DNA of 64,000 nucleotides. It comes from Thermoanaerobaculia bacterium. GTDB lineage: Bacteria; Acidobacteriota; Thermoanaerobaculia; Multivoradales; Multivoraceae. A program made the translations under genes and the position numbers. This document shows, piece by piece, positions 12,971 to 54,603 of this stretch (position 1 is its first letter; every line of letters begins with the position of its first letter). The notes beneath the pieces were generated by a model. That model had not been told where the DNA came from. It saw nothing but the letters and a program-made list of their open reading frames with translations, and ran no database searches. Where the stretch lies: assembly GCA_963666565.1 (NCBI GenBank), contig OY762911.1:736001-800000 (forward strand), in the 5' to 3' direction.

Positions 12971-13117
12971 GTTCAGGGGTGGGTGTGTGTGGCCGCCGGG
13001 TGCCGCACTGGGTGCCGCTGGGCGCCACTGGGTGCGCGGCGGGGGCACCCGGTGCGGAAACTCATGGACGCTCCGGCCTCCCCGTCCGTACCTTCCTTCA
13101 GCAGCCGGAGCAAACGA

Positions 13118-13858
13118 ATGAACGACGCGAACCACGAACCGGACGAACCCACGCCGCTCGGCTGGCACTGGAGGGGCTACCACCCCCACCTGGACGACCC
13201 GAGCCGGCTCCAGAGCGTCGGATTCCGGCTCGCGGACAGCGTGCCGCAACATCTCCTGAAACGTTGGCGCGAGGAAGCCGAAGGGTCCAGCGACAAGGTC
13301 CGCGCCGCGAAGGTCCACCGCCTGGTCAGCGAATTCGAGGACACGGGCTACGGCGCTTGCCACCTGCGCCAGCCGGCGATCGCCTCGGTGGTCCAGGACG
13401 CGCTCCTCTACGGCGACGGCGACGCCTATCGACTCCTCGAGTGGTGCGTCATGCCGAACCACATCCACGCCCTGCTGGAGCCGCGGCGGCCGCTCCCTGG
13501 CATCGTGCGGGCGTGGAAGGCGATCACCGCGCGCCGGGCCAACCGGATCCTGCACCGCAAGGGCCGCTTCTGGATGGTCGACTACTACGACCGGTTCATC
13601 CGCAACCGCCGGCACCTCGAAACCGTGCGACGCTACATCCAGCACAACCCCGTCGGCGCCGGCCTGTGCCGCGCGCCGCACGACTGGCCATGGTCGTCCG
13701 CCCACCAGCGCTGGGTGCGCGGGTCTTCCGACCCACACTGGGTGCGCGGGTCTTCCGACCCGCATCCGGTACGCGGGTCTTCTGACCCGCATCCGGTACG
13801 CGGGTCTTCTGACCCGCATCGGGCGACGTCGCGAAGCGGCGCAGACCGGAAGAAGTAG
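13118..13858 (+). CDS. REP-associated tyrosine transposase (RAYT, Y1/HUH)
   Basis: RGYHPH...FRLADS, WCVMPNHIHAL (HUH), W-K, FW..DYYDRFIR, RYIQHNP (catalytic Tyr), WPWSSA; REP leaders upstream and REPs downstream. Confidence 0.93.
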   Translation: MNDANHEPDEPTPLGWHWRGYHPHLDDPSRLQSVGFRLADSVPQHLLKRWREEAEGSSDKVRAAKVHRLVSEFEDTGYGACHLRQPAIASVVQDALLYGDGDAYRLLEWCVMPNHIHALLEPRRPLPGIVRAWKAITARRANRILHRKGRFWMVDYYDRFIRNRRHLETVRRYIQHNPVGAGLCRAPHDWPWSSAHQRWVRGSSDPHWVRGSSDPHPVRGSSDPHPVRGSSDPHRATSRSGADRKK

Positions 13859-15663: not shown

Positions 15664-15677
15664 AGTCCGCTGAGTGC

Positions 15678-15940
15678 CCGCATCTGGGTGCGCGGGTCTT
15701 CCGACCCGCATCTGGGTGCGCGGGTCTTCCGACCCGCATCTGGGTGCGCGGGTCTTCCGACCCGCATCTGGGTGCGCGGGTCTTCTGACCCGCATCTGGG
15801 TGCGCGGGTCTTCTGACCCGCATGGCCGCCGAAGGCGGCGAACAACATCGTCGCCGGCCTTCGGCCGGCGGCCATTTCCTCCGGTCGCCGCCGCTTTGCG
15901 GCGCCGCCTAGATGCGGGTCGGAAGACCCGCGCACCCAGC
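15678..15940. repeat. Intergenic REP array (5 x 28 bp) plus REPIN
   Basis: Units at 15684, 15712, 15740, 15768 and 15796; closing inverted REP at about 15914. Confidence 0.93.
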
Positions 15941-16039
15941 GGAGGAAGGGGTGCGTGAGTACCGTTTCGCAGTACAGTTACGCGGATGGAAAGAGGCGGC
16001 GAGCGCCCGAAGATGCACTCGCGGCCTCCGTTTTTCTAT

Positions 16040-16117
16040 GGTGTGTGTCGTCTAGCGATCCAGGACGCCGAGTTGAGTCCTCGGAAACGCGGGTTTGAAT
16101 CCCCGTCGCACACCCCA
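16040..16117 (+). ncRNA. tRNA-like element / pseudo-tRNA, anticodon GAG
   Basis: Cloverleaf: GTGTGTG/CGCACAC acceptor, (C)GTC/GAC(G) D stem, CCGAG/CTCGG anticodon stem, GCGGG/CCCGT T stem, encoded C-CCA end. Confidence 0.7.
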
Positions 16118-16251
16118 TCGGAGGGCGGCTAACCACGGAACCCGACCAGCTCTTCGGTGTTTCCTCTTGTCGCGGAGTCCACCCACTAGACGATTCCACC
16201 ACTTTTCGGGACGATCCTATACCGCCAGTCGTCCACGCGGTCAAGGTCGGT

Positions 16252-16560
16252 TCACAACTCCGCCATGATGCGCGGGATATGACTGCCCCCACGGACGTAG
16301 TCTTCACGCGGCCCCCAAAACTCCTCGTCGAGCATCTCCACGCTCTGCACACGGTCCACTCGCAACATCTTCCAGCCTTGTCCGGCACCGGACAGGCTTG
16401 GTCCACCAACTTGGTAGACGAGCGCAAGAGTGTGGGCCTTTCGGCTCCAGCCACAGGCGTGGGGCTCAACGCGCCGATAGCCGGGTGCGGTCTTGTACTC
16501 GACCCGTAACCGGCGGCGCTCTTTGATCGCCTGTGCGATCATGTCCAAGCGGCGCTTCAC
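16252..16560 (-). CDS. Stand-alone WYL domain protein
   Basis: IAQAIKERRRLRVEY....RRVEPHACG...YQVGG.S.SG...WKMLRVDRV. Confidence 0.85.
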   Translation of the reverse strand: MKRRLDMIAQAIKERRRLRVEYKTAPGYRRVEPHACGWSRKAHTLALVYQVGGPSLSGAGQGWKMLRVDRVQSVEMLDEEFWGPREDYVRGGSHIPRIMAEL

Positions 16561-16702
16561 GGTTGGCCCGATCGTGTGTCAGTTGGCCGAACTTCGTCGG
16601 CAAGACGCTCCAATTCGGCGAGATTGTGGGCGTCGGCGAGAATGTCGCGCAACGGTGGAAGTCTAGCACCTTCCTGGTGTTGGCGGCTATCGTCTCGGGG
16701 TG

Positions 16703-16808
16703 GCATCCGGATGAGAATAGCCGCCGGCCGAAGGCCGGCGACGATGTTGTCCGCCGCCTACGGCGGCAAGCGGGTCAGAAAGACCCGCGCACCCAGCGGG
16801 CACCCAGC
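16703..16808. repeat. Half REPIN
   Basis: GCCGCCGGCCGAAGGCCGGCGACGATGTT...GCGGGTCAGAAAGACCCGCGCACCC. Confidence 0.85.
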
Positions 16809-16818
16809 GCGCCGCCGG

Positions 16819-19230
16819 CTATGCGCGGCCAACGAGGCGCTTGATGGCGCCCTTGATCGGCTCGGGCAGGCGGCGGCCGAGGCGAACGGCCTGACGTTCG
16901 AGGCGTACCGCCAGGCTCTCGCGGGCCATCGACGCCGGCCGGCGGCCGCCATCCCTGAGCCACTCCTGCTCCTCGGCGGTCAACGTCAGCGCCGCGGCGG
17001 CGACCAGTTCCTCCACCTCCCGCTCGGTGGCCGCGCCGACGATGGCGTGCAGCGGCAGGTCCTGCGCCAGCACCCAGGCGAGCGCGACCTGCGGCACGGA
17101 GGCGCCGCGGGCCTCGGCGAACTCGGTCGCCCGCTCCAGCCGCGCCAGGTTCACGCCGTGGACGTAGGCGGTGCGGCAAGCCTCGTCGACCAGCCCCGGA
17201 TCGGCCGCCAGGGCGCGGCGGGTGACGCGGCCGGAGAACAGGCCGCGCGCCAGCGACGACCAGGCGAACACAGCCATGCCCGTGCTCCGGTGCCAGGCGC
17301 GGTCGCCCGCGGCCGCGGCGCCGGTCAGCGTCACGCAGCCGCCGCCCCAGGGGTCGCGGATCTGGTCGGCGAGCGAGAAGTTGGGGCTCGACGCGGCGGG
17401 CAACGGCCGCCCGTTGGCCGCCGCGTAGTCGCAGGCCTCCTCGATCCGCGCGCGGGTCCAGTTCGAGAAGCCGTACGCGCGCAGGCGGCCGGCGGCGACG
17501 TGCTCGGCGAAGGCGTCGACCATCTCGCCGACCGGCACGGCCGCATCGTCGCGGTGCAGCATGTACAGGTCGACGGCGGGGAGCCGGAGCCGGTCGAGCG
17601 ACTCGGCGAGGTCCCGCGCCAGGGCTTCCGGGTTGACGCGCGCGCCGGAAGCGTCGGGGTGGCAGCCCTTGGAGAGGACGAAGACGTCGTCGGCGAGGCG
17701 GCGGCGTTCGAGCCACGAGCCGATGGCGCGCTCCGAGGCGCCGCCGCCGTAGACGTGGCCGGTGTCGATGCCGCAGATGCCGTTCTCGAAGGCCGCGTCG
17801 AGGAGGGCGTCGGCGGCGTCCTGGGAGGCGGGGGCGTCGCCGTCGAGGATCATCGTGCCGAGGATGAGTCGGGAGACATAGCGCGGCGGCGATTCGCCTC
17901 CGCTGGGTGCGCGGGTCTTCCGACCCGCATCGGGCGGAGCCGCGGAGCGGCGCAGACCGGAAGAATGGCCGCCGGCCGAAGGCCGGCGACGATGCTGTTC
18001 GCCGCCTTCGGCGGCATGCGGGTCAGAAGACCCGCGCACCCAGTGCGGGTCAGAAGACCCGCGCACCCAGTGCGGGTCAGAAGACCCGCGCACCCAGTGC
18101 GGGTCAGAAGACCCGCGCACCCAGTGCGGGTCGGAAGACCCGCGCACCCAGGGGACCCGCGCGTCCAGCAATCCGGATAAAACGCGGTACGTCATCGCCC
18201 GATGGCTCCCCGCCGTAACCCCGACGCTCGGCTCGAAGGGGTACTGCACGCCCATCCGGCGGCGCAGCTCGTCCATCAGTTCGAGCAGCGCGACGGACTC
18301 GGCGTGCGGCAGCAGCGGACTCTCGACGTCGCCGTCGCGGAGCATCCGTTCGACTTCGAGCGCCTGGTACTCGTAGCCGTTGCAGAGGAACGGGCACTCC
18401 AGCGAGGCGACCTCTCGCGTCTCGCACTCCAGTTCGGCCTTCTGCGCCCGCCAGAACTCGGGGATCAGGATCCTCCCGGCGTCGCCCTGGATGACGGCGG
18501 TGTCGGGTGTGGCGCGGCTGATGGAGGATTCGAGGTACGCCTCCGCCCCGCCGCCGAAGCGCAGGACGATCTTGCAGTGCCGGTCCACTCCCGACGGCGC
18601 GAGATCGGCGCGGACCTCGATCTCCGGCATCTCGCCGCCGGTCACCCGCTCGCCGAAGACGAGCGACGCCAGCGAGAGCGTGTAGCAGCCCACGTCGAGC
18701 AGGCTGCCGCCGGCAAGCGCCGGATCGTAGAGCCGGCTCGCCGCGTCGAACTGCGTCTCGAAGCCGAAGGAACAGACGAGCCGGCTCGGTTCGCCGATCG
18801 TGCCGTTCGCGATCCAGTCCGCCACCCGCCGGGTGGCCGGAAGGAAGCGGGTCCACATCGCCTCCAGCAGCGGGCGCTCGCATTCGCGGGCGATGGCGCA
18901 CAGCCGGCGGGCCTCGGAGGCGTTGACACAGAGCGGCTTCTCGCACAGCACCGCCTTGCCGTGCCGGAGCGCCAGCGCCGCGTGTTCCATGTGGCCGGGG
19001 TGCGGCGTAGCGACGTAGACCGCGTCGACCGATTCGCTGCGCACGAGGTCGCGGTAGCCGCCGGCCTCCGCCGTCCCGTAGCCGCGCTCGGCGTTGAACG
19101 CGCGCGCCCGCTCCGGGTCGCGGCTGCCGGCGGCGACGACTCTGTGACCCTCCAGTGCGTCGATGGCGGTGGCGAAGGTGCGGGCTATGGCCCCCGGACC
19201 GAGGATTCCCCAGCGGACGGCGGCGGTCAT
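16819..19230 (-). CDS. Gfo/Idh/MocA oxidoreductase fused to aldo/keto reductase, with in-frame REP insert
   Basis: WGILGPGAIA, VYVATPH, LCEKP, GGSLLDVGCY; then VSRLILGTM, IDTGHVYG, LSKGCHP, DLYMLHRD, GFSNW. Confidence 0.88.
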   Translation of the reverse strand: MTAAVRWGILGPGAIARTFATAIDALEGHRVVAAGSRDPERARAFNAERGYGTAEAGGYRDLVRSESVDAVYVATPHPGHMEHAALALRHGKAVLCEKPLCVNASEARRLCAIARECERPLLEAMWTRFLPATRRVADWIANGTIGEPSRLVCSFGFETQFDAASRLYDPALAGGSLLDVGCYTLSLASLVFGERVTGGEMPEIEVRADLAPSGVDRHCKIVLRFGGGAEAYLESSISRATPDTAVIQGDAGRILIPEFWRAQKAELECETREVASLECPFLCNGYEYQALEVERMLRDGDVESPLLPHAESVALLELMDELRRRMGVQYPFEPSVGVTAGSHRAMTYRVLSGLLDARVPWVRGSSDPHWVRGSSDPHWVRGSSDPHWVRGSSDPHWVRGSSDPHAAEGGEQHRRRPSAGGHSSGLRRSAAPPDAGRKTRAPSGGESPPRYVSRLILGTMILDGDAPASQDAADALLDAAFENGICGIDTGHVYGGGASERAIGSWLERRRLADDVFVLSKGCHPDASGARVNPEALARDLAESLDRLRLPAVDLYMLHRDDAAVPVGEMVDAFAEHVAAGRLRAYGFSNWTRARIEEACDYAAANGRPLPAASSPNFSLADQIRDPWGGGCVTLTGAAAAGDRAWHRSTGMAVFAWSSLARGLFSGRVTRRALAADPGLVDEACRTAYVHGVNLARLERATEFAEARGASVPQVALAWVLAQDLPLHAIVGAATEREVEELVAAAALTLTAEEQEWLRDGGRRPASMARESLAVRLERQAVRLGRRLPEPIKGAIKRLVGRA
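17903..18165. repeat. REPIN plus 5 x 27-bp REP array, in frame
   Basis: (WVRGSSDPH)5 followed by REPIN-encoded peptide in the oxidoreductase frame. Confidence 0.93.
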
Positions 19231-21410
19231 ACCTTCCCGCGCAACGCCTGAAGCACCAGGTCGCGGGCGCGTCGGGGCTCGTAGAGGAAGACGCGGCGGG
19301 CCTTCGGGCCGAAGCGGTAGCGCATTCCGGCCGCGCGCCGCCGCCAGCCGGCGTAGGGCCGGGCGACCGTCAGCGCGTAGTGGGCGGCGCCGGCTCGGGC
19401 ACCGCCGCCGCCGCCCGAGCCCGAGCCCTCGGCGAGGCGCCGCAACTCGTCCTGGGGCAGGCGGCGCCAGTGGACGGCGGCGGCGAGCGGCGCGATCACG
19501 TCGCCGCCGTAGGGGCGCTCGGACTCGACCCGGAAGCCGGTGCGGATCAGCCGGGCGATGTCGCTGGAGCGGGTGGCGCGGGCGCAGTCGCCTTCCACCG
19601 GCGGCATGGGCAGCCGCTCGAACCGGCGGGCGGCGGGCGGCAGCCGGCGGTAGGCGGCGGCCGCCGCGGCGCCGGTGCGGCGGTTCCACTGGTGACGGGC
19701 CGGGCCGACGTAGTCGTCGACGAAGAGGCGGCCGCCGGGTTCGAGGGCGTCGAGGATGGCGTCGAGAAGTCGCTCGAGGCGGAGGTGGGAGGACAGGCCG
19801 CCGATGCAGCAGGCGGCCTGGTAGGCAGCGGCCGGGAGGTCGGGGCGGCGAGGGTGGAGGCGAAGGCGGCGAATGAGGGCGGGAGGGGACTCCGGCTCGC
19901 CACTGGGTGCGCGGGTCTTCCGACCCGCTGCCGCCGAAGGCGGCGGAGAATCGCCGGTCGAAGACCGTCCGACAGAGGCGACGACGTCCACGCTGGCGGC
20001 GAAACCGGCGCGGAGAAGTTCGTGGGCCCACGCTTCGTCGCCGATGAGCAACACCCGGTCGAGGGGTTCTGCCGGGACATGCTCGGCAATCCAGTCGCCG
20101 GGGCTGGGGAGGGGCGAAGGCCGGGGCTCGCCGCTTCGCGGCGTCGCGCTCGGTGCGGGTCGGAAGACCCGCGCACCCAGCGGAGATTCGCTACTGGGTG
20201 CGCGGGTCTTCCGACCCGCATCCGCCGAAGGCGGAGGACAATCGCCGGCCGAAGGCCGTCCGTTCCCCGCCACGCCCGCCACGTCGGCGACGCCGCCGCT
20301 GCCGGGGCCGGCGCCAAGCTGCTCCAGCCGCTCCCCGGCCTGCTGCCGCCACTGCAGCCGGAAGTACAGCGCGTGCTTCCGCTCCGAGCACGTCCGGCAG
20401 GTCCCGCACGGATTGCCGCTGCTCAGGCCGTCGACGATCTCGGCCAGCAGCGGCGAGCGACGCACCTCGGCGAGCGAGGTCTCGGGATAGAGCCCGATCG
20501 GCTCGTCCTCCCAGAAGATGCACGGCGACACCGCGCCGTTCGGCCGCACCACCACGGTGTGCCCCGGCCAGGCGCAGCCGGCGACCGCGGTGCGGAACCG
20601 CCCCCGCAGCCGCTGCCGGTCGTAGAGCCCCGCGCGCCAGCGCATCAGCCGGCCGCGCAGGCCGATCGCGCCGCCGTCGTCGAAGTCGGGGTAGGAGACG
20701 AGACGGAGCCCGCGGGCCGCCGCGTCCTCGGCGGCCGCCGCCAGTTCGGCGCGTAGCGCGCCCGGGTCCTCGCCGTCGAGCAGTTCGTCCTCGGCGGTCA
20801 CGTGGGCGGTCGGCGCCACGAAGCGGACGTCGAGCTCGCTGGCGCCGACCTCCTCGGCGAAGCGCGGCAGGTCGAGCAGGTCGGCGCGGTTCGTCCGCAT
20901 CCACACGAAGATCAGCCGCAGCCGCGTCGAGCCGCCGCGGCGGACCTCGTTCAGCAGGTCGAGGCAACGCATCAGCCGGTCGAACTTGCCGCCCACCCGG
21001 ATCGACTCGTAGGTCTCGGCCCGGGTGCCGTCCATCGAGACGCCAACGGCGTTCACCCCGGCCTCGCAAATGGCCTCGGCCTTCGGCGGCGTCAGCGGCA
21101 GCAGGTTCGTCGGGAACCACAGGTCGGGGACGCCGTAGCCGCCGGCCTCGCGGACGATGTCGATGAACTTCGGATGAACCAGCGGCTCGGCGGCGCAGCC
21201 CAGGGCGACGCGACGGGCGCGCGGGAAGAGGTCGGCCGCTACCCGCGAGAAGGTCTCGAGCGGCATCATGCCGGTCTTCGAGAGCTCGCGGTCGAAGGGC
21301 AGGAACTGCAGCCGGTCGACGGCGGAGAAGTAGCACATCCGGCACTTCAGGTTGCAGCGCTCGGTGGTGTCGAGGATGACCTCGAGGGGGCGGCGTTGGA
21401 GGAGGGGCAT
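19227..21410 (-). CDS. Radical SAM/SPASM protein fused to a methyltransferase-like domain, with REP inserts
   Basis: CNLKCRMC, AEPLVHP, CAWP...VRPNGAVSPC, CGTCRTC; C-terminal LEPGGRLFVDDYVGP. Confidence 0.85.
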   Translation of the reverse strand: MPLLQRRPLEVILDTTERCNLKCRMCYFSAVDRLQFLPFDRELSKTGMMPLETFSRVAADLFPRARRVALGCAAEPLVHPKFIDIVREAGGYGVPDLWFPTNLLPLTPPKAEAICEAGVNAVGVSMDGTRAETYESIRVGGKFDRLMRCLDLLNEVRRGGSTRLRLIFVWMRTNRADLLDLPRFAEEVGASELDVRFVAPTAHVTAEDELLDGEDPGALRAELAAAAEDAAARGLRLVSYPDFDDGGAIGLRGRLMRWRAGLYDRQRLRGRFRTAVAGCAWPGHTVVVRPNGAVSPCIFWEDEPIGLYPETSLAEVRRSPLLAEIVDGLSSGNPCGTCRTCSERKHALYFRLQWRQQAGERLEQLGAGPGSGGVADVAGVAGNGRPSAGDCPPPSADAGRKTRAPSSESPLGARVFRPAPSATPRSGEPRPSPLPSPGDWIAEHVPAEPLDRVLLIGDEAWAHELLRAGFAASVDVVASVGRSSTGDSPPPSAAAGRKTRAPSGEPESPPALIRRLRLHPRRPDLPAAAYQAACCIGGLSSHLRLERLLDAILDALEPGGRLFVDDYVGPARHQWNRRTGAAAAAAYRRLPPAARRFERLPMPPVEGDCARATRSSDIARLIRTGFRVESERPYGGDVIAPLAAAVHWRRLPQDELRRLAEGSGSGGGGGARAGAAHYALTVARPYAGWRRRAAGMRYRFGPKARRVFLYEPRRARDLVLQALRGKV

Positions 21411-21420
21411 GGAGTTGGCC

Positions 21421-21600
21421 GGATGCGGGTCAGAAGACCCGCGCACCCAGTGGGACGGATGCGGGTCGGAAGACCCGCGCACCCAGTGGGACGGATGCGG
21501 GTCGGAAGACCCGCGCACCCAGTGGGACGGATGCGGGTCGGAAGACCCGCGCACCCAGTGGGACGGATGCGGGTCGGAAGACCCGCGCACCCAGTGGGAG
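21421..21600. repeat. REP array, 5 x 36 bp, between the glycosyltransferase and radical SAM genes
   Basis: GGATGCGGGTCRGAAGACCCGCGCACCCAGTGGGAC units. Confidence 0.93.
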
Positions 21601-21605
21601 GAGGT

Positions 21606-22772
21606 TCATGGGGGCAGCGCCTTGAGCATGGTCTGGCAGACGCCGCGGCCGGAACTCCTGCGGCGCCATACGGCGGCGATGCTAGCCGGGTCCCGTTCGC
21701 CGCGCCGCCAGGCCGCCCGTTCCTCGGCCATCGCCGCGGCCAGCGGGCCGGCGCGGTGCGCGGAGGCGACCCGGCCGTAGGCGCCTCCCTCGGACCAGCT
21801 CCGCAGGCTCGGGATCGGCGTGCCGACCACGGTCGCTCCCATCGACAGCGCCTCGCAGCCGGCGTGCGGCGCGCCCTCCCACCGCGACGAGAACACGATG
21901 AAGCGGCTGCCGGCGAGCGCGTCGGCGAGCACCTCGGGGTACTGCGGCCCGTGGTGCTCCACGTTCGGGAAGCGGCGCCCGAGCCCGCCGAACAGCTCCT
22001 CGCCGCCCGGTCCGAAGATGTCGACCGGCTCGCTCCGCGCCACGCGCCCGGCCCGGCCGAGGTAACGGGCGAGCGCGCGGACCAGGAGCGGCGCGTTCTT
22101 CTGTGGATCGTCCCAGCGGCCGATGGCCACCATGCCGCGCCGCTCGCGCCCAAGGTCGGGCGACTCGACGTAGACGCGGTTGATGGCGAGGGGAGCGACG
22201 TGGACCCGGTCGGCCAGGCCGGGCGCGCCCGCCCGGCGCAGGAAGCGGCGGAAGTGGGTCCGCGCCTCCTCGCAGCCGAGGATCAACGCGTCGGACGATT
22301 CGGCGCTGCGGACGAACTCGGCGTCCTGCGGGTCGGCGCGGCGGAACGAGAGCAGGTAGCGCTTGGCCACGAAGCGAAGCTGCCGCATCTGGCGCCGGCG
22401 GTCGGCGACGCCGGAGAAGACCTTCCGGCGCAACGTCGCGAGGGGGAACGCGCGAAGACCCATCTGGCCGTCGGAGTCGCCCATGGCGATCGTCAGCGCA
22501 CCGGCGGCGCGGATCGTCTCCAGCAGGGCCGACATCTGGTGGAAGGAGGGCACGATCGCGACATCGACGGCGAGGCCGCGCCAGAACGCCTCGTCTTCCA
22601 GGCCGCCGCCCCGCGGCGACGCGATGGGCACGGGAAAGCCGTCGTTCGAGGACTCCGGGCAGGCGACGACCGCCTCGTGGCCGAGCGTCTCCAGCCCGCG
22701 GACGTACTCCTCGAAGCGGAAACTGCACTGGCTCAGCGGCGTACCGTAGTTCCAGACGACCGCGACCCGCAT
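21606..22772 (-). CDS. Glycosyltransferase, GT4 family
   Basis: AIGRWDDPQKN, FSSRWEGAPHAGCEALSMG (EX7E). Confidence 0.88.
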   Translation of the reverse strand: MRVAVVWNYGTPLSQCSFRFEEYVRGLETLGHEAVVACPESSNDGFPVPIASPRGGGLEDEAFWRGLAVDVAIVPSFHQMSALLETIRAAGALTIAMGDSDGQMGLRAFPLATLRRKVFSGVADRRRQMRQLRFVAKRYLLSFRRADPQDAEFVRSAESSDALILGCEEARTHFRRFLRRAGAPGLADRVHVAPLAINRVYVESPDLGRERRGMVAIGRWDDPQKNAPLLVRALARYLGRAGRVARSEPVDIFGPGGEELFGGLGRRFPNVEHHGPQYPEVLADALAGSRFIVFSSRWEGAPHAGCEALSMGATVVGTPIPSLRSWSEGGAYGRVASAHRAGPLAAAMAEERAAWRRGERDPASIAAVWRRRSSGRGVCQTMLKALPP

Positions 22773-22808
22773 GATGGGGTGACGCTACCGGACGCCGCTG
22801 GAGTACGG

Positions 22809-24941: not shown

Positions 24942-26262
24942 TCCGGGTGGACGCCGTGTCGCCCAGGCGGTTGTGGTGCGACCAGGTGCGGCCTTCGCTG
25001 TCCACGACGTGGAGGTTGAAGGCGAGGTCGGTCACCGGGGCGACGTAGACCCAACGGTGGTTGTTGTAGAAGCAGCCGTTCAGCACCTTGATCAGCACTT
25101 CCGCGTTGTCGCGGGTGAAGAACCACAGCAGGCCGGATTCGCCGGACGCCCAGATGCCTGCCTTGCCCTCGCCCACCGTGCCTTCGGCCGTCTCGTAGCA
25201 CATGCGGACGCTGTAGCCGCCGTCGAAGACGAGCGGCGTGGTTGCCGGCACGCAGTCGGTGTAGCCCGGTCCGGTGGGCGGACCGTCGCCCGGATCGGGG
25301 TCGGGCGTCGGATCGGGCGTGGGGTCCGGGTCGGGATCGGGATCCGGATCGGGATCGGGGTCCGGGTCGGTGGCCGGGTGGTCCACGGCCAGGCGGATGC
25401 CGTAGGGTCCCGATTCCGAGTCGGGCTGCCAGGCTTCCCAGTCGCGGTCCGCCGTCGAGCGAGCCCGGAAAGCGCGCCGGCCCGCGGAGTTGTCCGTGTC
25501 CACGGCCAGTAGCTTCGTGTCGCTGACCGGGGCGCCGCGCCGCCACGAGACGGCGAGCCAGACGTGGCCGGCGGCGAGCGACTGGCCGGCCAGGTCGCCA
25601 GCCAGCCGGAAGCAGTCGTAGGTGCCGGCCTGCTCGAGCCGGCTGGCGACCTCGTAGGCGGCCAGCCCGTCGCCCGGCACGCCGCCAGCGTTGGAGTAGA
25701 ACGTCAGCGTGAAGGCCACGTCGGGGCTCTCGTCCTCCTGCGAGCGCCCGAAGCACGCCTCGGCGTAGGCGACCGTGCCCGCGCTCGGCAGCTCGAACCG
25801 CTGGGCGAACTCCATCTCGTAGAGGGGATCGTCGGTCGCTTCGTCGACCAGCCAGAGGAACTCCTCGAAGCTGTCGTCGTCGTACTCGTAGACCTGGGTG
25901 GCGGGCTGGGAGACACTGACGGGGGCGGCGGCGCCGGGGACGGCGGCGCCAAGGCTGCGTACCGAGACGGGGGCGGCGGCGGGCCGTTCGACGAGGCGGA
26001 GGCGCTCGGCCTGCACGACGGCGCGCGGTTCGGGCGCCAGGAGGTCGCGGCCGGCCTGGGCGGCGAGGGGCGGGGCGAGGAAGATGAGAGCGAGGAGGGA
26101 GGCGAAGGACGGCCTTCGGCCGGCGGTTCTCCGCCGCCTTCGGCGGCAGCGGGTCAGAGGACCCGCGCACCCAGGGCGGGTCGAAAGACCCGCGTACCCG
26201 GTGCGGGACGCGAGCGAGATCGGCGAGGCGGGGCAACCGGGGGCGGGGGTCCGGCGGGTCAT
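24910..26262 (-). CDS. Secreted protein with (PD)n linker and Cys-rich C-terminal domain
   Basis: AGGAGG RBS; signal h-region LLALIFLAPPLAA; YEYDD domain; WFFTRDNAEVLIKVLNGC...AFPC. Confidence 0.85.
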   Translation of the reverse strand: MTRRTPAPGCPASPISLASRTGYAGLSTRPGCAGPLTRCRRRRRRTAGRRPSFASLLALIFLAPPLAAQAGRDLLAPEPRAVVQAERLRLVERPAAAPVSVRSLGAAVPGAAAPVSVSQPATQVYEYDDDSFEEFLWLVDEATDDPLYEMEFAQRFELPSAGTVAYAEACFGRSQEDESPDVAFTLTFYSNAGGVPGDGLAAYEVASRLEQAGTYDCFRLAGDLAGQSLAAGHVWLAVSWRRGAPVSDTKLLAVDTDNSAGRRAFRARSTADRDWEAWQPDSESGPYGIRLAVDHPATDPDPDPDPDPDPDPDPTPDPTPDPDPGDGPPTGPGYTDCVPATTPLVFDGGYSVRMCYETAEGTVGEGKAGIWASGESGLLWFFTRDNAEVLIKVLNGCFYNNHRWVYVAPVTDLAFNLHVVDSEGRTWSHHNRLGDTASTRSDTEAFPCAE

Positions 26263-52610: not shown

Positions 52611-52687
52611 TGGTGGCGGTGGAGGGACTCGAACCCCCGACACAGCGGATATGAGCCGCTTGCTCTAACCGGCTGAGCTACACCGCC
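52611..52687 (-). tRNA. tRNA with CAT anticodon (probably elongator Met)
   Basis: GGCGGTGTAGCTCAG...CTCATAT...GGTTCGAGTCCC...CACCGCCACCA. Confidence 0.93.
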
Positions 52688-52791
52688 AGACGAACGCGGA
52701 ATCGTACCGGAACGAGGCGCCGGCCGAACCGGGTGCGCGTCTTCCGGCCGCCTTCGGCGGCGGCGGGTCAGAGGACCCGCGCACCGACCGT

Positions 52792-53163
52792 TCAGGGGCC
52801 GGGCTTGCGCAGCGAGTCCTGGCAGCTTCGGAACTGCCCGAAGAAGCTGCGCATCGACTCGGAGAGCGCCGCGTCGTTCAGACGGTAGATCACATTCTGG
52901 CCTCGCCGCTGGTCGATCACGAGATCGGCCTCCTTCAGCACGGACAGGTGCCGCGAGATGGTCGGCTGGGAGAGATCGAACTCGCCCACGATGTCGCCGA
53001 CGCAACGCTGCTCGTCTTCCAGCAGGCGGAGTATGTTCTGCCGGGTCGAGTCGGACAGCGCCTTGAAGACCTTCGTCATCTGACGGGAGCGCCGGTCGCG
53101 GGGCTCCAGCCCGCTCAGCGAGCCGCCCAAGCGTACAGGTCGATGTTCTGTCTTCTGATCCAC
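52792..53163 (-). CDS. ArsR/SmtB family transcriptional regulator (alternative start 53079)
   Basis: VFKALSDSTRQNIL.LL, LSQPTISRHLSVLKEADLV. Confidence 0.92.
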   Translation of the reverse strand: MDQKTEHRPVRLGGSLSGLEPRDRRSRQMTKVFKALSDSTRQNILRLLEDEQRCVGDIVGEFDLSQPTISRHLSVLKEADLVIDQRRGQNVIYRLNDAALSESMRSFFGQFRSCQDSLRKPGP

Positions 53164-53300
53164 GATTCTGGTTCTCCGGGGAATGAAGAGAGTTGGCCAT
53201 TATGCCATAACCCGGACCATCTGTGGGACTTCGATCGCTCCATGCGCGGATCGTCGCTGGGTGCGCGGGCCTGACCCGCCTTTCGCCGCCAACCGCCGCA

Positions 53301-54002
53301 TCAGACCCGAGAGTTGAGGCGAGCCGGCATCATCAGGCCCCGGCGGCGGAGCGCCCGGCGCATGCGGCCGACCACCGTCGCCACCGTCGCCGGCGCCAGT
53401 TGGACCGCGTTCGCCGCCTCGCGGGAGTTCCAGCCGTCGACCACCATGCGCTCCGTCATCCAGGTGTCCCGGAGCGCCGTCCCGCCCGGCCTGGCGACGC
53501 CGCGGCACTCGCTCCGGAAGCGGCTTCGGAGCTCCCGCGCGTAGATGGCGTCGATCGGGCTGTAGGCCCGGCTCGGGAGTTCGACGAGCTCCGTGTCCTC
53601 GGCCAGTCCGGCCTCCACGCCGACGTGAAGTTCCACGACGGCGCCGCGCTTCAGCGCCGAGCGGGCGCGCAGCCAGTCGACCAGCGTGCTCCGGGCGACC
53701 CGGCGCAGGTAGGACCGGATGGTCGTTTCGGACTTCGCGCGGCATCCGCGCAGGCCCCGGCGGTCTTTCTGGAGGAGCCGCAGGTAGGTCTCCTGGATCA
53801 ACTCGTCGAGGAGGTCGCTGGTCAGGTACGTGCCGTAACTTCGCGCCAGCGCGGTGAGGGTGCTGCGCAACAACGGGTCGACGCGCCGGACCAGGGATGC
53901 CCAGTCCGCGTCGGCGGCGACGCACTCGCGCCAGAGGTCGGGGAAGTCGTGTGGCTGCTCGGTCTGCTGGTGACAGGTCTGTGGGTTCATCGTCCGCTCC
54001 AT
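53301..54002 (-). CDS. ECF-type sigma-70 factor
   Basis: DELIQETYLRL, YLRRVARSTLVDWLR, C-terminal HTH (REAA..VQL...TV). Confidence 0.8.
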   Translation of the reverse strand: MERTMNPQTCHQQTEQPHDFPDLWRECVAADADWASLVRRVDPLLRSTLTALARSYGTYLTSDLLDELIQETYLRLLQKDRRGLRGCRAKSETTIRSYLRRVARSTLVDWLRARSALKRGAVVELHVGVEAGLAEDTELVELPSRAYSPIDAIYARELRSRFRSECRGVARPGGTALRDTWMTERMVVDGWNSREAANAVQLAPATVATVVGRMRRALRRRGLMMPARLNSRV

Positions 54003-54132
54003 GCAAGTGGAGCGGAGGCGCCCAGCGGGACACGCCGGCAGGCTTTGGGCTCAGGGCGACGGCGCCCGGCCCGGCCAACTCAGAGTCGGCAAGGGCGGGA
54101 GAGCGTAGCAGGCCAGCAGGGCGATTTGGAGG

Positions 54133-54288
54133 TTAGCGGAGCTTCTCTTCGACGAACTCGACGTGACGCCGGATCTTCGGGTCGTACTTCTTGAGCCTCA
54201 GCTTCTCCTGGCCGAGCTTCTTGTTCTTCGTCGTCGTGTAGAAGTACCCGGTTCCGGCACTCGATACGAGCTTGATCTTGTCTCTCAC
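54133..54288 (-). CDS. rpmG: 50S ribosomal protein L33 (Cys-free type)
   Basis: Own translation [24 protein letters not shown]...[19 protein letters not shown]; GGAGGT RBS. Confidence 0.96.
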
Positions 54289-54338
54289 GTCGTCACCTCC
54301 GATGCGGCCCGGCGGCTCGCGGGGACTGGGGAGCGGAA

Positions 54339-54415
54339 TGGCGGGGCCGACGGGACTCGAACCCGCGACCTCCGGCGTGACAGGCCGGCATTCTAACCAG
54401 CTGAACTACGACCCC
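54339..54415 (-). tRNA. tRNA-Asp(GTC)
   Basis: GGGGTCGTAGTTCAG...CTGTCAC...GGTTCGAGTCCC...GCCA. Confidence 0.96.
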
Positions 54416-54528
54416 GTGGGTCCGTCTCCTCGCTTTGTCCCTCGCTTGCTTCGTCCTGTTCCCGCCGCCGTTGCGGCGTCTTCTTCGGTTCCTCGGGTTT
54501 CCTGGTCGCGCGTACTCCGGAACCTCCG

Positions 54529-54603
54529 TGGTGGGAGGTGGGGGATTCGAACCCGCGACCCCCTGCGTGTAAAGCAGGTGCTCTACCCCTGAGCTAACCT
54601 CCC
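54529..54603 (-). tRNA. tRNA-Val(TAC)
   Basis: GGGAGGTTAGCTCAG...TTTACAC...GGTTCGAATCCC...ACCA. Confidence 0.94.

What the first reader, a model, noticed from the sequence alone, without database searches (positions are those of the whole stretch)
16040..16117. Non-canonical tRNA-like RNA with mixed identity next to a WYL gene
Seen: a full cloverleaf with encoded CCA. The body resembles tRNA-Glu (TCGTCTAG...CCAGGAC, 4-nt variable loop). The anticodon is GAG (Leu) yet there is no long variable arm, and a possible G-1:C73 pair is the tRNA-His determinant. Invariant positions deviate: D loop GA for GG, T loop TTTGAATC, pyrimidine at 37. The stems remain paired, which fits maintained structure better than random decay. 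It lies in a lower-GC cassette between REPINs, convergent with a stand-alone WYL gene. Inference: tRNA mimic/decoy, mistranslating tRNA, or ligand of a WYL-linked stress or defence module.
Basis: partly seen in the sequence, partly recalled or inferred. Interest (0 to 1): 0.8.

Follow-up and report, generated by a model that had tools for sequence, protein, structure and literature searches.

The report
Orphan phage-type tRNA with mixed identity
A real but odd tRNA gene, with a histidine-type end, a glutamate-type body and a leucine anticodon, sits on a small foreign DNA islet; it looks like a stray from the tRNA clusters that phages carry, and whether it still works is open.

Summary
Window 16040-16117 (+) is a complete cloverleaf with 22 of 22 standard pairs and an encoded CCA. 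ARAGORN calls it Leu(GAG). Rfam tRNA scores 31.7 bits (cut-off 29), against 54-69 for the host's own tRNAs.

Its identity signals are mixed:
- G-1, G1-U2-G3 and C73, shared in this genome only with tRNA-His.
- A Glu-type D arm and a 4-nt variable loop.
- Anticodon loop UUGAGUC, with U37.
- An 8-nt T loop.

Two of the "deviations" are lineage traits. A19/U56 and the D and T arms recur almost letter for letter in tRNA-Glu genes of phage tRNA arrays, including an Erythrobacter phage. The loop differs by one base from that of one phage tRNA-His.

The gene lies on a 749-bp lower-GC islet with a stand-alone WYL gene, inserted between ilvD and an aldo/keto reductase and flanked by REPINs. The islet was not found in 41 congeners or 299 genomes of the order. 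One sponge-metagenome contig carries it at about 95% identity. That copy has the same anticodon arm but a normal 7-nt T loop.

The WYL link does not generalise: none of 86 WYL-homologue loci has such a tRNA. No RNA data were available.

Best reading: an orphaned phage-array tRNA that HisRS could probably charge and that decodes poorly.

The parts
15796..15939 (.). Left REPIN (two inverted REP units), preceded by a 28-nt tandem REP array at 15674-15823
   Evidence: the repeat finder families D1-D7 and inverted pairs I2-I6
15944..16692 (.). 749-bp lower-GC islet, an insertion relative to congeners. The same stretch is held at about 95% identity by one contig of run X7, with unlike flanks.
   Evidence: GC profile. 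ilvD and the aldo/keto reductase abut in L105 and lie about 200 nt apart in L103. Read laying record 6 covers 15944-16692 with loose ends on both sides.
15993..16036 (+). GC-rich hairpin (15993-16028) followed by a U-run (16031-16035), directly upstream of the tRNA-like gene. It looks like a terminator on the + strand. Its role is inferred.
   Evidence: MFE fold. The consensus terminator scan did not list it. X7 shows no substitution here and one 1-nt deletion at 16037.
16040..16117 (+). Non-canonical tRNA gene: G-1, 7-bp acceptor stem, Glu-type D arm, anticodon loop UUGAGUC (GAG, U37), 4-nt variable loop, 8-nt T loop, C73, encoded CCA
16137..16163 (+). Weak hairpin followed by UCUUGU; a possible 3' end signal (inferred only)
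   Evidence: MFE fold; not listed by the terminator scan
16252..16560 (-). Stand-alone WYL-domain gene (102 aa from the GTG; an in-frame ATG at codon 7 is where relative P0004 starts)
   Evidence: Pfam WYL 1.1e-7. Two PADLOC WYL models. Against X7, 9 synonymous and 5 non-synonymous codon changes. AlphaFold2 pLDDT 89.5; best folds are the DriD and PafBC WYL domains.
16716..16796 (.). Right half-REPIN, an 81-nt inverted repeat of 15796-15876 (85%). A 20-nt direct repeat occurs at 15923-15942 and 16780-16799.
   Evidence: the repeat finder I1 and D10

Best explanation
This is a genuine tRNA gene of foreign origin. It is a member of the pool of divergent tRNAs that phages carry in tRNA arrays, and it is now stranded on a 749-bp islet with a small WYL gene in the ilvD/aldo-keto-reductase intergenic region.

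Its identity signals are scrambled:
- The acceptor end carries the complete bacterial histidine set: encoded G-1 paired with C73, plus G1-C72, U2-A71 and G3-C70.
- The core is the glutamate type: U11-A24, U13.G22 and a 4-nt variable loop.
- The anticodon is GAG (Leu codons CUC/CUU), in a loop with U37.

Inferred mechanism, if it is transcribed: RNase P would leave G-1 because it pairs with C73. The host HisRS would charge it, since the host's own tRNA-His uses G-1/C73. LeuRS should reject it (C73, no long arm), and so should GluRS (A35, U37). It would therefore be a His-tRNA with a Leu anticodon.

U37, the low tRNA-model score and, in this strain, an 8-nt T loop predict a poor or null decoder. 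I put about even odds on whether it still yields a stable, chargeable tRNA-like RNA under selection or is a recently silenced passenger.

What is shown: the structure, the identity elements, the foreign origin, the insertion and the second copy. What is inferred: expression, processing, charging and any role.
For: Structure and identity:
- 22 of 22 standard pairs.
- U8, A14, G18, A21, U33, G53, U54, U55, A58 and C61 are all present by reading.
- Only this gene and tRNA-His have C73 among 45 CCA-ending calls. Both have G-1 and begin GTG.
- Published identity sets (PMC9976931, Table 1 in section 6 and the histidine passage): bacterial His is G-1 and C73 with a minor anticodon contribution, and microhelices with G-1:C73 are charged. 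Leu needs A73 and core elements. Glu needs G1-C72, U2-A71, tertiary pairs, a missing residue 47, and U34, U35, C36, A37.

Phage-array origin:
- The 19-nt D arm occurs in 2 viral contigs, both times in tRNA-Glu(TTC) of 30-36-gene arrays that also have T loop TTTGAAT.
- tRNA-Glu(CTC) of Erythrobacter phage vB_EliS-L02 has 18 of 19 D-arm letters. Its variable-loop end and T arm are identical to the 7-nt-loop form. The array's genes end in CCA.
- Phage tRNA-His in L154 has loop TTGTGTC, one base from TTGAGTC. It also has a 4-nt variable loop, GA in the D loop, TTTGAAT and C73-CCA.
- L159 is a phage look-alike with the same ends and an odd anticodon loop.
- The best own-genome relatives are only about 66% identical, so it is not a recent host duplicate.

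Foreign islet:
- Lower GC.
- The islet was not found in 41 congeners or in 299 other genomes of the order. The 101-nt tRNA-like stretch alone matched none of 36 congeners.
- ilvD and the reductase are adjacent in congeners.

Constraint:
- The X7 copy keeps the whole anticodon arm and both ends.
- The tRNA has 1 substitution in 77 nt.
- The stretch 15988-16183 has 2 of 196, against 37 of 553 elsewhere (p=0.001; p=0.03 if the 3 indels are counted).
Against: - No expression data: no RNA run holds the stretch.
- No sigma-70-like promoter was found on either strand of 15850-16800. A terminator-like hairpin ends 4 nt before the gene.
- The Rfam score of 31.7 is 22-37 bits below the four host tRNAs scored (His, both Glu, Leu(GAG)), and 18-24 below the phage relatives L159 (49.9) and L098 Glu(TTC) (56.0).
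- The extra C in the T loop is present in every contig of the window's own lineage that was laid (X1, X5). It is absent from X7 and from all relatives. That looks like relaxed constraint here.
- The conserved "core" was delimited after seeing the data. For the tRNA alone the contrast is not significant (p=0.24). All 3 indels fall in the core.
- Only one independent homologue exists, so no covariation test is possible.
- Similarity to phage tRNAs is arm by arm. No single phage tRNA matches all arms, so descent from an array is an inference.
- The WYL protein has no relative in the phage collection.
Confidence: 0.55

Rival explanations
1. A dead relic. The tRNA came in on a mobile element, lost its anticodon identity (for example GUG to GAG in a His-type tRNA) and its promoter, and is now neutral DNA that has not yet had time to lose its stems.
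For: - 8-nt T loop in this lineage only.
- Lowest tRNA score in the genome set examined.
- No promoter-like site, and a terminator-like hairpin abutting the 5' end.
- Very narrow distribution.
- All three indels between the two copies lie in or next to it.
Against: - 22 of 22 pairs are intact.
- 1 substitution in 77 nt where about 5 are expected at the islet's non-core rate.
- The flanking 120 nt are also nearly unchanged.
- The odd features (A19/U56, U37-C38, 4-nt variable loop) are inherited traits of working-looking phage tRNAs, not decay.
Confidence: 0.3
2. A working dual-identity tRNA. It is histidylated and reads CUC/CUU, giving regulated Leu-to-His mistranslation, as tRNA-ProX does for Pro in Streptomyces.
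For: - Complete His acceptor set with a Leu anticodon (PMC9976931 Table 1).
- Precedent for natural dual-identity tRNAs (PMC10404621, abstract and passages).
- Precedent for a CUN-reading tRNA derived from tRNA-His in yeast mitochondria (passage in PMC7609411).
- The anticodon arm is unchanged in X7.
Against: - U37 and the 8-nt T loop are unfavourable for decoding (the effect of U37 is recalled general knowledge).
- CUC is expected to be a common codon in a 70% GC genome (codon usage not measured), so efficient use would be costly.
- No dedicated synthetase is nearby. The two HisRS-family loci lie at C1:2.53 Mb and 1.65 Mb, and the window is at 0.74-0.80 Mb.
- No expression data.
Confidence: 0.08
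3. A tRNA-like RNA that works with the neighbouring WYL protein, as its ligand or as a decoy in a stress or defence module.
For: - The two genes are co-inherited in both known copies of the islet.
- It is the only WYL domain in the genome.
- The model's best structural matches are WYL domains that bind single-stranded nucleic acid (DriD with ssDNA), followed by Sm proteins.
Against: - No locus among the 86 that encode WYL relatives has such a tRNA. Four loci have any ARAGORN call; by my reading only one looks real, a tRNA-Asp 207 nt upstream in L044.
- The nearest relatives L017 and L018 (71% aa) share only the coding region, and no RNA family matches beside it in L017.
- No defence family beyond the generic WYL models.
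- Two copies at 95% identity cannot separate linkage from co-function.
Confidence: 0.05
4. A DNA-level site. The tRNA-shaped stretch and its flanking hairpins serve as an attachment or recombination target, and that, not an RNA, is what is conserved.
For: - tRNA genes are common integration sites (general knowledge).
- Conservation extends about 50-65 nt beyond the tRNA on both sides.
- The islet has sharp borders with unlike flanks in X7.
Against: - No integrase or recombinase on or next to the islet. The nearest mobile gene is a RAYT about 2 kb away.
- No terminal repeats of the islet itself other than the REPIN parts.
- One copy per genome.
Confidence: 0.02

Closest known systems
tRNA-Glu genes of phage tRNA arrays (Erythrobacter phage vB_EliS-L02, OL955261.1; viral contigs L098/L099)
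   Same: - D arm is 18-19 of 19 letters identical.
- GA in the D loop with UUUGAAU in the T loop (A19:U56 in place of G19:C56).
- The T stem and the end of the variable loop are identical to the 7-nt-loop allele.
- CCA is encoded in the Erythrobacter phage array.
   Different: - All seven acceptor pairs and the anticodon arm differ.
- Discriminator is C, not A.
- Anticodon is GAG, not YUC.
- U37, not A37.
- It stands alone in a bacterial chromosome, not in an array.
Bacterial tRNA-His (host copy, and phage copies such as L154)
   Same: - Encoded G-1 opposite C73, and G1-U2-G3 with C70-A71-C72.
- The CCCCA end.
- G34 and G36.
- The L154 loop UUGUGUC differs by one base. L154 also has a 4-nt variable loop, GA in the D loop and UUUGAAU.
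   Different: - A35 instead of U35, so the anticodon is not His.
- The D arm is the Glu type, not the usual GCUC/GAGC type.
- L154 has C, not G, at -1.
Dual-identity mistranslating tRNAs (tRNA-ProX of Streptomyces and Kitasatospora; PMC10404621)
   Same: Identity elements for one amino acid combined with the anticodon of another, in a gene with a patchy distribution.
   Different: - tRNA-ProX genes sit next to a dedicated ProRS isoform, and they were shown to decode.
- Here no synthetase is adjacent, nothing has been shown, and the loop and T loop look unfavourable.
L159:3962-4037 (-), a tRNA-like gene on a phage contig
   Same: - g at -1, start GTGTG, end ACAC-C-CCA.
- D loop AGTGATCA.
- 4-nt variable loop.
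- UUUGAAU.
- An anticodon loop that does not fit His.
   Different: - Different stems throughout.
- Loop CCAGAAC without U33.
- Low-GC phage context beside a Phd/YefM-like ORF and an IS1595 transposase, with no WYL.
- 49.9 Rfam bits.
Bacterial Y RNA / YrlA tRNA-like modules
   Same: A tRNA-like fold in a non-coding RNA.
   Different: No Rfam match other than tRNA, and no Ro60/TROVE gene in the genome.

Membership tests
tRNA (Rfam RF00005, canonical elongator) | Cloverleaf with 7/4/5/5-bp stems and a score at or above the gathering cut-off | tested here: met
   31.7 bits against 29; 22 of 22 standard pairs
tRNA (Rfam RF00005, canonical elongator) | 7-nt T loop and a purine at position 37 | tested here: not met
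   8-nt T loop in the Infernal alignment, 7 nt in the X7 copy. U37 in both copies. Of 212 ARAGORN calls examined, 6 had T at 37.
tRNA (Rfam RF00005, canonical elongator) | G18-G19 with U55-C56 elbow pairs | tested here: inconclusive
   G18 and U55 are present. G19:C56 is replaced by A19:U56, a Watson-Crick pair also seen in phage tRNA-Glu and tRNA-His. The tertiary fold was not modelled.
Bacterial tRNA-Leu | A73 and a class-II core with a long variable arm (PMC9976931 Table 1) | tested here: not met
   C73 and a 4-nt variable loop. The host has a normal 85-nt tRNA-Leu(GAG) with A73.
Bacterial tRNA-His | Encoded G-1 and C73 | tested here: met
   G at 16040 and C at 16114. Shared only with the host tRNA-His among 45 CCA-ending calls.
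Bacterial tRNA-His | Anticodon G34-U35-G36 | tested here: not met
   GAG: G34 and G36 are kept, with A35
Bacterial tRNA-Glu | G1-C72, U2-A71, U13.G22-type core and missing residue 47 | tested here: met
   Read. The D arm is identical to phage tRNA-Glu(TTC).
Bacterial tRNA-Glu | U34/U35/C36 and A37 | tested here: not met
   G34, A35, G36, U37
Dual-identity mistranslating tRNAs (tRNA-ProX kind) | Acceptor and core identity for one amino acid with the anticodon of another | tested here: met
   In silico only:
Dual-identity mistranslating tRNAs (tRNA-ProX kind) | Adjacent dedicated synthetase isoform | tested here: not met
   HisRS-family matches only at C1:2530173 and C1:1653807; the window is C1:736001-800000
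Dual-identity mistranslating tRNAs (tRNA-ProX kind) | Charging and decoding shown | not testable with these tools
   Needs aminoacylation and reporter assays
Y RNA / YrlA | Rfam Y-RNA model match and a Ro60 (TROVE) gene | tested here: not met
   No such Rfam match even at E up to 10. TROVE has 0 matches in the genome, which is 97% complete.
WYL-domain proteins (neighbouring gene) | Pfam PF13280 match over the cut-off and an Sm-like WYL fold | tested here: met
   32.1 bits against 21.8. Foldseek best hits are DriD and PafBC WYL domains, TMq 0.61-0.66, E about 0.01.

The most novel reading that the evidence does not exclude
A natural histidine-accepting tRNA with a leucine (GAG) anticodon, kept with a stand-alone WYL gene on a REPIN-flanked mini-islet. 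It would act either as a conditional Leu-to-His mistranslator or as a non-decoding His-tRNA mimic (for example titrating HisRS or a tRNA-His-directed factor), with the single-strand-binding WYL protein sensing or controlling it.
Probability: 0.12. Interest if true: 0.8.

Novelty: new variant of a known kind. Interest (0 to 1): 0.45.

Why it matters
Natural tRNAs whose acceptor identity and anticodon disagree are rare. Where they have been tested (tRNA-ProX), they drive deliberate mistranslation. A His-acceptor/Leu-anticodon tRNA has not turned up in my literature searches (none of the listed papers that I opened describes one).

If it is expressed and charged, it would be a second, independent kind of dual-identity tRNA. 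It would also be a clean natural test of how far G-1:C73 alone sets histidine identity in vivo.

If it is silent, it is still a tidy example of how phage-array tRNAs end up as orphans in bacterial chromosomes. It also shows why gene finders will label it tRNA-Leu, which is wrong.

Tried and rejected
- Chance match or ARAGORN false positive: rejected. The genome has about ten poor ARAGORN calls without CCA. This one has CCA, all conserved core bases and an Rfam match.
- Recent duplicate of a host tRNA: rejected. The best own-genome relatives (Glu TTC, Gln CTG, Glu CTC) are only about 66% identical.
- Inverted anticodon hairpin of a tRNA-Glu (CUC read backwards as GAG): considered by hand and rejected. 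An inversion predicts A37; U37 is seen.
- Y RNA: rejected.
- A 49-aa ORF upstream of WYL (16557-16706, -): probably not a gene. It has 6 non-synonymous against 2 synonymous changes versus X7, its start lies outside the conserved islet, and it has no family match.
- Conserved partner gene of the small WYL family: clustering ORFs around 87 loci gave no partner shared with the window.
- DNA similarity of the islet to plasmids and phages: none at E 1e-3 or better.
- WYL protein by tblastn: phages 0; plasmids 11 records at 28-36% identity.
- Sequence search of solved structures with the WYL alignment: nothing below E 0.3.

Viral pattern scans that led nowhere:
- T-arm 18-mer: 1 contig (L097) with no tRNA call. 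By my own rough estimate of the collection's size, this is at about chance level.
- Anticodon-arm 17-mer: 0 contigs.
- Glu D arm plus UUGAG: 23 loci, none candidate-like.
- 5'-half pattern: 44 loci, only L159 tRNA-like.
- Glu D arm plus His end: L153, plus an unrelated L208.

Other points:
- The degenerate His-end/U56 pattern matched no other genome among 400 of the class.
- The 9 weak 56-nt matches in other families were not examined.
- Expression: no RNA holder was listed for the islet, so nothing can be said either way.
- The promoter/terminator consensus scan found no promoter on either strand and did not list the two hairpins. It also found none for the WYL gene, so it is uninformative.
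- Supplementary files of papers were not requested.
Full report
**What is there.** ARAGORN finds five tRNA-like genes in the window. One is tRNA-Leu(gag) at 16041-16117 on the + strand. Rfam's tRNA model matches 16041-16113 at 31.7 bits, just above the cut-off of 29. The three ordinary tRNAs of the window score 66-69.

The Infernal alignment shows four regular stems and a T loop with one extra base, UUUGAAUC. Read as a cloverleaf that includes G-1:C73, all 22 pairs are standard and three are G-U. The thermodynamic MFE fold is not the cloverleaf, which is common for tRNAs and says little.

By direct reading the parts are:
- acceptor gtgtgtg/cgcacac
- tc
- D arm gtct-agcgatcca-ggac
- g
- anticodon arm ccgag-ttgagtc-ctcgg
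- variable loop aaac
- T arm gcggg-tttgaatc-cccgt
- C73 and CCA

U8, A14, G18, A21, U33, G53, U54, U55, A58 and C61 are in place. The departures are A19 for G19, U56 for C56, U37, and the eighth T-loop base.

**Identity signals.** The genome (4.79 Mb, 70% GC, one contig) gives 56 ARAGORN calls. Forty-five of them end in CCA. Among those, only tRNA-His(GTG) and this gene have C73, and both have G at -1 and begin GTG. A normal 85-nt tRNA-Leu(GAG) with A73, two tRNA-Glu genes and one tRNA-His exist elsewhere.

The table of validated determinants (PMC9976931, section 6 and the histidine passage) gives these sets:
- Bacterial His identity rests on G-1 and C73, with a lesser anticodon contribution. 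Microhelices with G-1:C73 are charged.
- Leu needs A73 and core features.
- Glu needs G1-C72, U2-A71, tertiary pairs, the missing residue 47, and U34, U35, C36, A37.

The gene therefore meets the whole His acceptor set and the non-anticodon Glu set. It meets nothing of Leu except the anticodon. The label tRNA-Leu is wrong in all but name.

**Where the odd features come from.**
- *D arm.* The 19-nt D arm occurs in two of the 2.9 million viral contigs. Both times it is in a tRNA-Glu(TTC) inside a 30-36-gene tRNA array, and that tRNA also has the T loop TTTGAAT.
- *Annotated phages.* A BLAST of the 78-nt gene gave four weak records. One is Erythrobacter phage vB_EliS-L02. Its unannotated tRNA-Glu(CTC) has 18 of 19 D-arm letters, and the end of its variable loop plus its T arm equal the 7-nt-loop form of our gene. 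All of the array's tRNA calls but the first end in CCA, and the array lies near a tyrosine recombinase and an RNA ligase.
- *A19/U56.* GA for GG and U56 for C56 are thus a compensated pair inherited from a phage tRNA lineage, not two defects.
- *U37.* It is rare: 6 of 212 ARAGORN calls in everything I held. It recurs in a 76-nt tRNA(GAG) of the L098/L099 arrays (loop CTGAGTA). It also recurs in the phage tRNA-His(GTG) of L154, whose loop TTGTGTC differs from ours only at position 35. L154 also has a 4-nt variable loop, GA in the D loop, TTTGAAT and C73-CCA, but it has C at -1.
- *Other look-alikes.* L153 holds a His-type tRNA (GTG) with a Glu-type D arm. L159 holds a look-alike with the same ends, D loop and T loop and a non-His anticodon loop.
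- *Limits.* No single relative matches all arms, and the best host tRNAs are about 66% identical.

I read the gene as a member of the fast-evolving phage-array tRNA pool. Which arm came from what cannot be resolved with 77 nt.

**The islet.** GC falls to 0.61-0.65 over 15800-16800. On the left lie a 28-nt REP array and a full REPIN. On the right lies a half REPIN that is an 81-nt inverted repeat of the left one. A RAYT-type transposase gene lies about 2 kb upstream.

In the congeners G016 and G027, ilvD and the aldo/keto reductase abut or are about 200 nt apart. So 15664-16815 is an insertion.

Distribution of the 749-bp islet and the gene:
- One copy in the genome.
- Islet absent from the 41 other species of the genus; the 101-nt tRNA-like stretch alone matched none of 36 congeners.
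- Absent from 299 other genomes of the order.
- No DNA match in plasmids or phages.
- A loose pattern for a His end plus a U56 T loop matched none of 400 other genomes of the class.

**The second copy.** Seven public runs hold words of the islet. Contigs of four were laid.
- X1 is identical and may be the source.
- X5 and X6 hold identical fragments at low depth.
- X7, a sponge metagenome, has one 2398-nt contig at depth 409. It covers 15944-16692 with 39 substitutions and 3 one-base indels, and it runs on into unlike sequence at both ends.

Inside the tRNA, X7 differs by C16056T, a variable D-loop position, and by lacking one C of the run 16101-16104. That gives a normal 7-nt T loop. The acceptor, the anticodon arm with UUGAGUC, A19/U56 and C73-CCA are the same.

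The 8-nt loop is therefore real, since it is seen in X1 and X5 contigs, but private to the window's lineage.

Substitutions per region:

| Region | Substitutions |
|---|---|
| tRNA | 1 of 77 |
| 15988-16183 | 2 of 196 |
| WYL gene | 15 of 309 |
| Upstream of WYL | 9 of 132 |

- The core-versus-rest contrast gives p=0.004 with the 34 listed changes and p=0.001 with all 39. It gives p=0.03 if the three indels, all in the core, are counted.
- The core was delimited after seeing the data.
- For the tRNA alone, p=0.24.

This is moderate evidence of constraint, not strong evidence.

**The WYL gene.**
- The 102-aa ORF matches Pfam WYL (1.1e-7) and two PADLOC WYL models. It has no NCBIfam match.
- It is the only WYL domain found in the genome.
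- Against X7 it shows 9 synonymous and 5 non-synonymous codon changes, so it is a live gene.
- An AlphaFold2 model (pLDDT 89.5) is closest to the ssDNA-binding WYL domains of DriD and PafBC, and then to Sm proteins.
- It has 11 relatives in the 5.8-billion-protein set.
- Six genome loci and 80 of 97 metagenome loci encoding relatives were fetched. ARAGORN calls a tRNA in 4 of these 86 loci. By my reading only L044's looks real, a tRNA-Asp 207 nt upstream on the same strand.
- BLAST finds no similarity to the tRNA-like gene in any of them.
- The nearest relatives, L017 and L018 (71% aa), match the window only across the coding region, and no RNA family lies beside the gene in L017.
- Relatives occur on 11 plasmid records and on no phage record.

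The tRNA-WYL pairing is thus seen only in the two copies of this islet.

**How it most likely works.** Shown: structure, identity elements, foreign origin and a second copy. Inferred: everything about the RNA.

If it is transcribed, the G-1:C73 pair should direct RNase P to leave G-1 (recalled from the E. coli tRNA-His literature), and the host HisRS should charge it. C73 and the short arm should exclude LeuRS. A35 and U37 should exclude GluRS. The product would be His-tRNA with anticodon GAG.

Efficient use at CUC/CUU would be costly in a 70% GC genome. U37, the low model score and the 8-nt T loop argue that it decodes poorly or not at all.

A hairpin with a U-run ends four bases before the gene, and a weaker hairpin follows it. 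No promoter-like site was found, but none was found for the WYL gene either. No RNA run was available.

I therefore hold the orphaned phage-array tRNA with His acceptor identity as the best account (0.55), with even odds inside it on whether it still makes a stable, chargeable RNA. The rivals are:
- a dead relic (0.30)
- a working Leu-to-His mistranslator of the tRNA-ProX kind (0.08; PMC10404621, abstract and passages)
- a WYL partner or decoy (0.05)
- a DNA-level recombination site (0.02)

**Comparison and novelty.** It works like, or would work like, a dual-identity tRNA. It is not a member of the tRNA-ProX family, and no dedicated synthetase is adjacent. It is not a Y RNA.

A review passage notes that a CUN-reading tRNA-Thr of yeast mitochondria arose from tRNA-His (PMC7609411). 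That shows the His-to-CUN anticodon route has been taken before.

My four literature searches listed no paper whose title or abstract describes a bacterial His-acceptor/Leu-anticodon tRNA or a tRNA-like partner of a WYL protein. I opened three of the listed papers.

I rate it a new variant of a known kind. Its interest is moderate until expression is shown.

Noticed in passing
window 12983-13858 (+); 15674-15823; about 17900-18150: A RAYT-type gene (Pfam Y1_Tnp, 2.7e-8) lies about 2 kb from 28-nt tandem REP arrays and REPINs that recur between the neighbouring genes. The islet is bracketed by an 81-nt inverted pair of REPIN halves, as if it were cargo inside a very large REPIN.
   Followed up: partly
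window 25264-25356 (+): ARAGORN calls a 93-nt tRNA-Pro(cgg) in a stretch of GGATCGGG-type short repeats. Rfam gives no tRNA there, so it is probably a false positive.
   Followed up: no
window 52611-54603 (-): An ordinary tRNA cluster, Met(CAT), Asp(GTC) and Val(TAC), each at 66-69 Rfam bits.
   Followed up: no
window 19227-22784 (-): A radical-SAM/SPASM protein (787 aa) followed by a group-1 glycosyltransferase, just beyond the Gfo/Idh/MocA and aldo/keto reductase genes. This may be a peptide-modification or sugar pathway.
   Followed up: no
L159:3962-4037 (-): A phage-contig tRNA-like gene (Rfam 49.9 bits) with a His-type end (g-1, C73, CCA), GA/U56 and the anticodon loop CCAGAAC, which lacks U33. 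It lies beside a Phd/YefM-like ORF, an HNH gene and an IS1595 transposase. It is the nearest look-alike of the finding.
   Followed up: partly
L098:7739-7814 (-), L099:6169-6244 (+); L209/L210 (Erythrobacter phage): Phage tRNA arrays hold class-I-length "Leu" tRNAs (76-79 nt, no long variable arm). One has anticodon GAG with U37. Isotype labels from the anticodon alone are unsafe in such arrays.
   Followed up: partly
L136, L138, L140, L141, L144, L146-L148, L151, L152: A recurrent viral-contig tRNA-Glu(TTC)-like gene that starts GTGCCCG and has the anticodon loop CCTTCCG (C33 and C37).
   Followed up: no
L153:2531-2607 (-): In an 18-gene viral tRNA array, a His-type tRNA (GTG, g-1, C73, CCA) with a Glu-type D arm and a T loop without the TTC motif (Rfam 42.1 bits).
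   Followed up: partly
L097:7403-7420 (-): The only exact viral match to the 18-nt T arm with the 4-C run. ARAGORN calls no tRNA there. The flanks could pair (tgcac/gtgca) into a minihelix. By my estimate this is probably chance.
   Followed up: no
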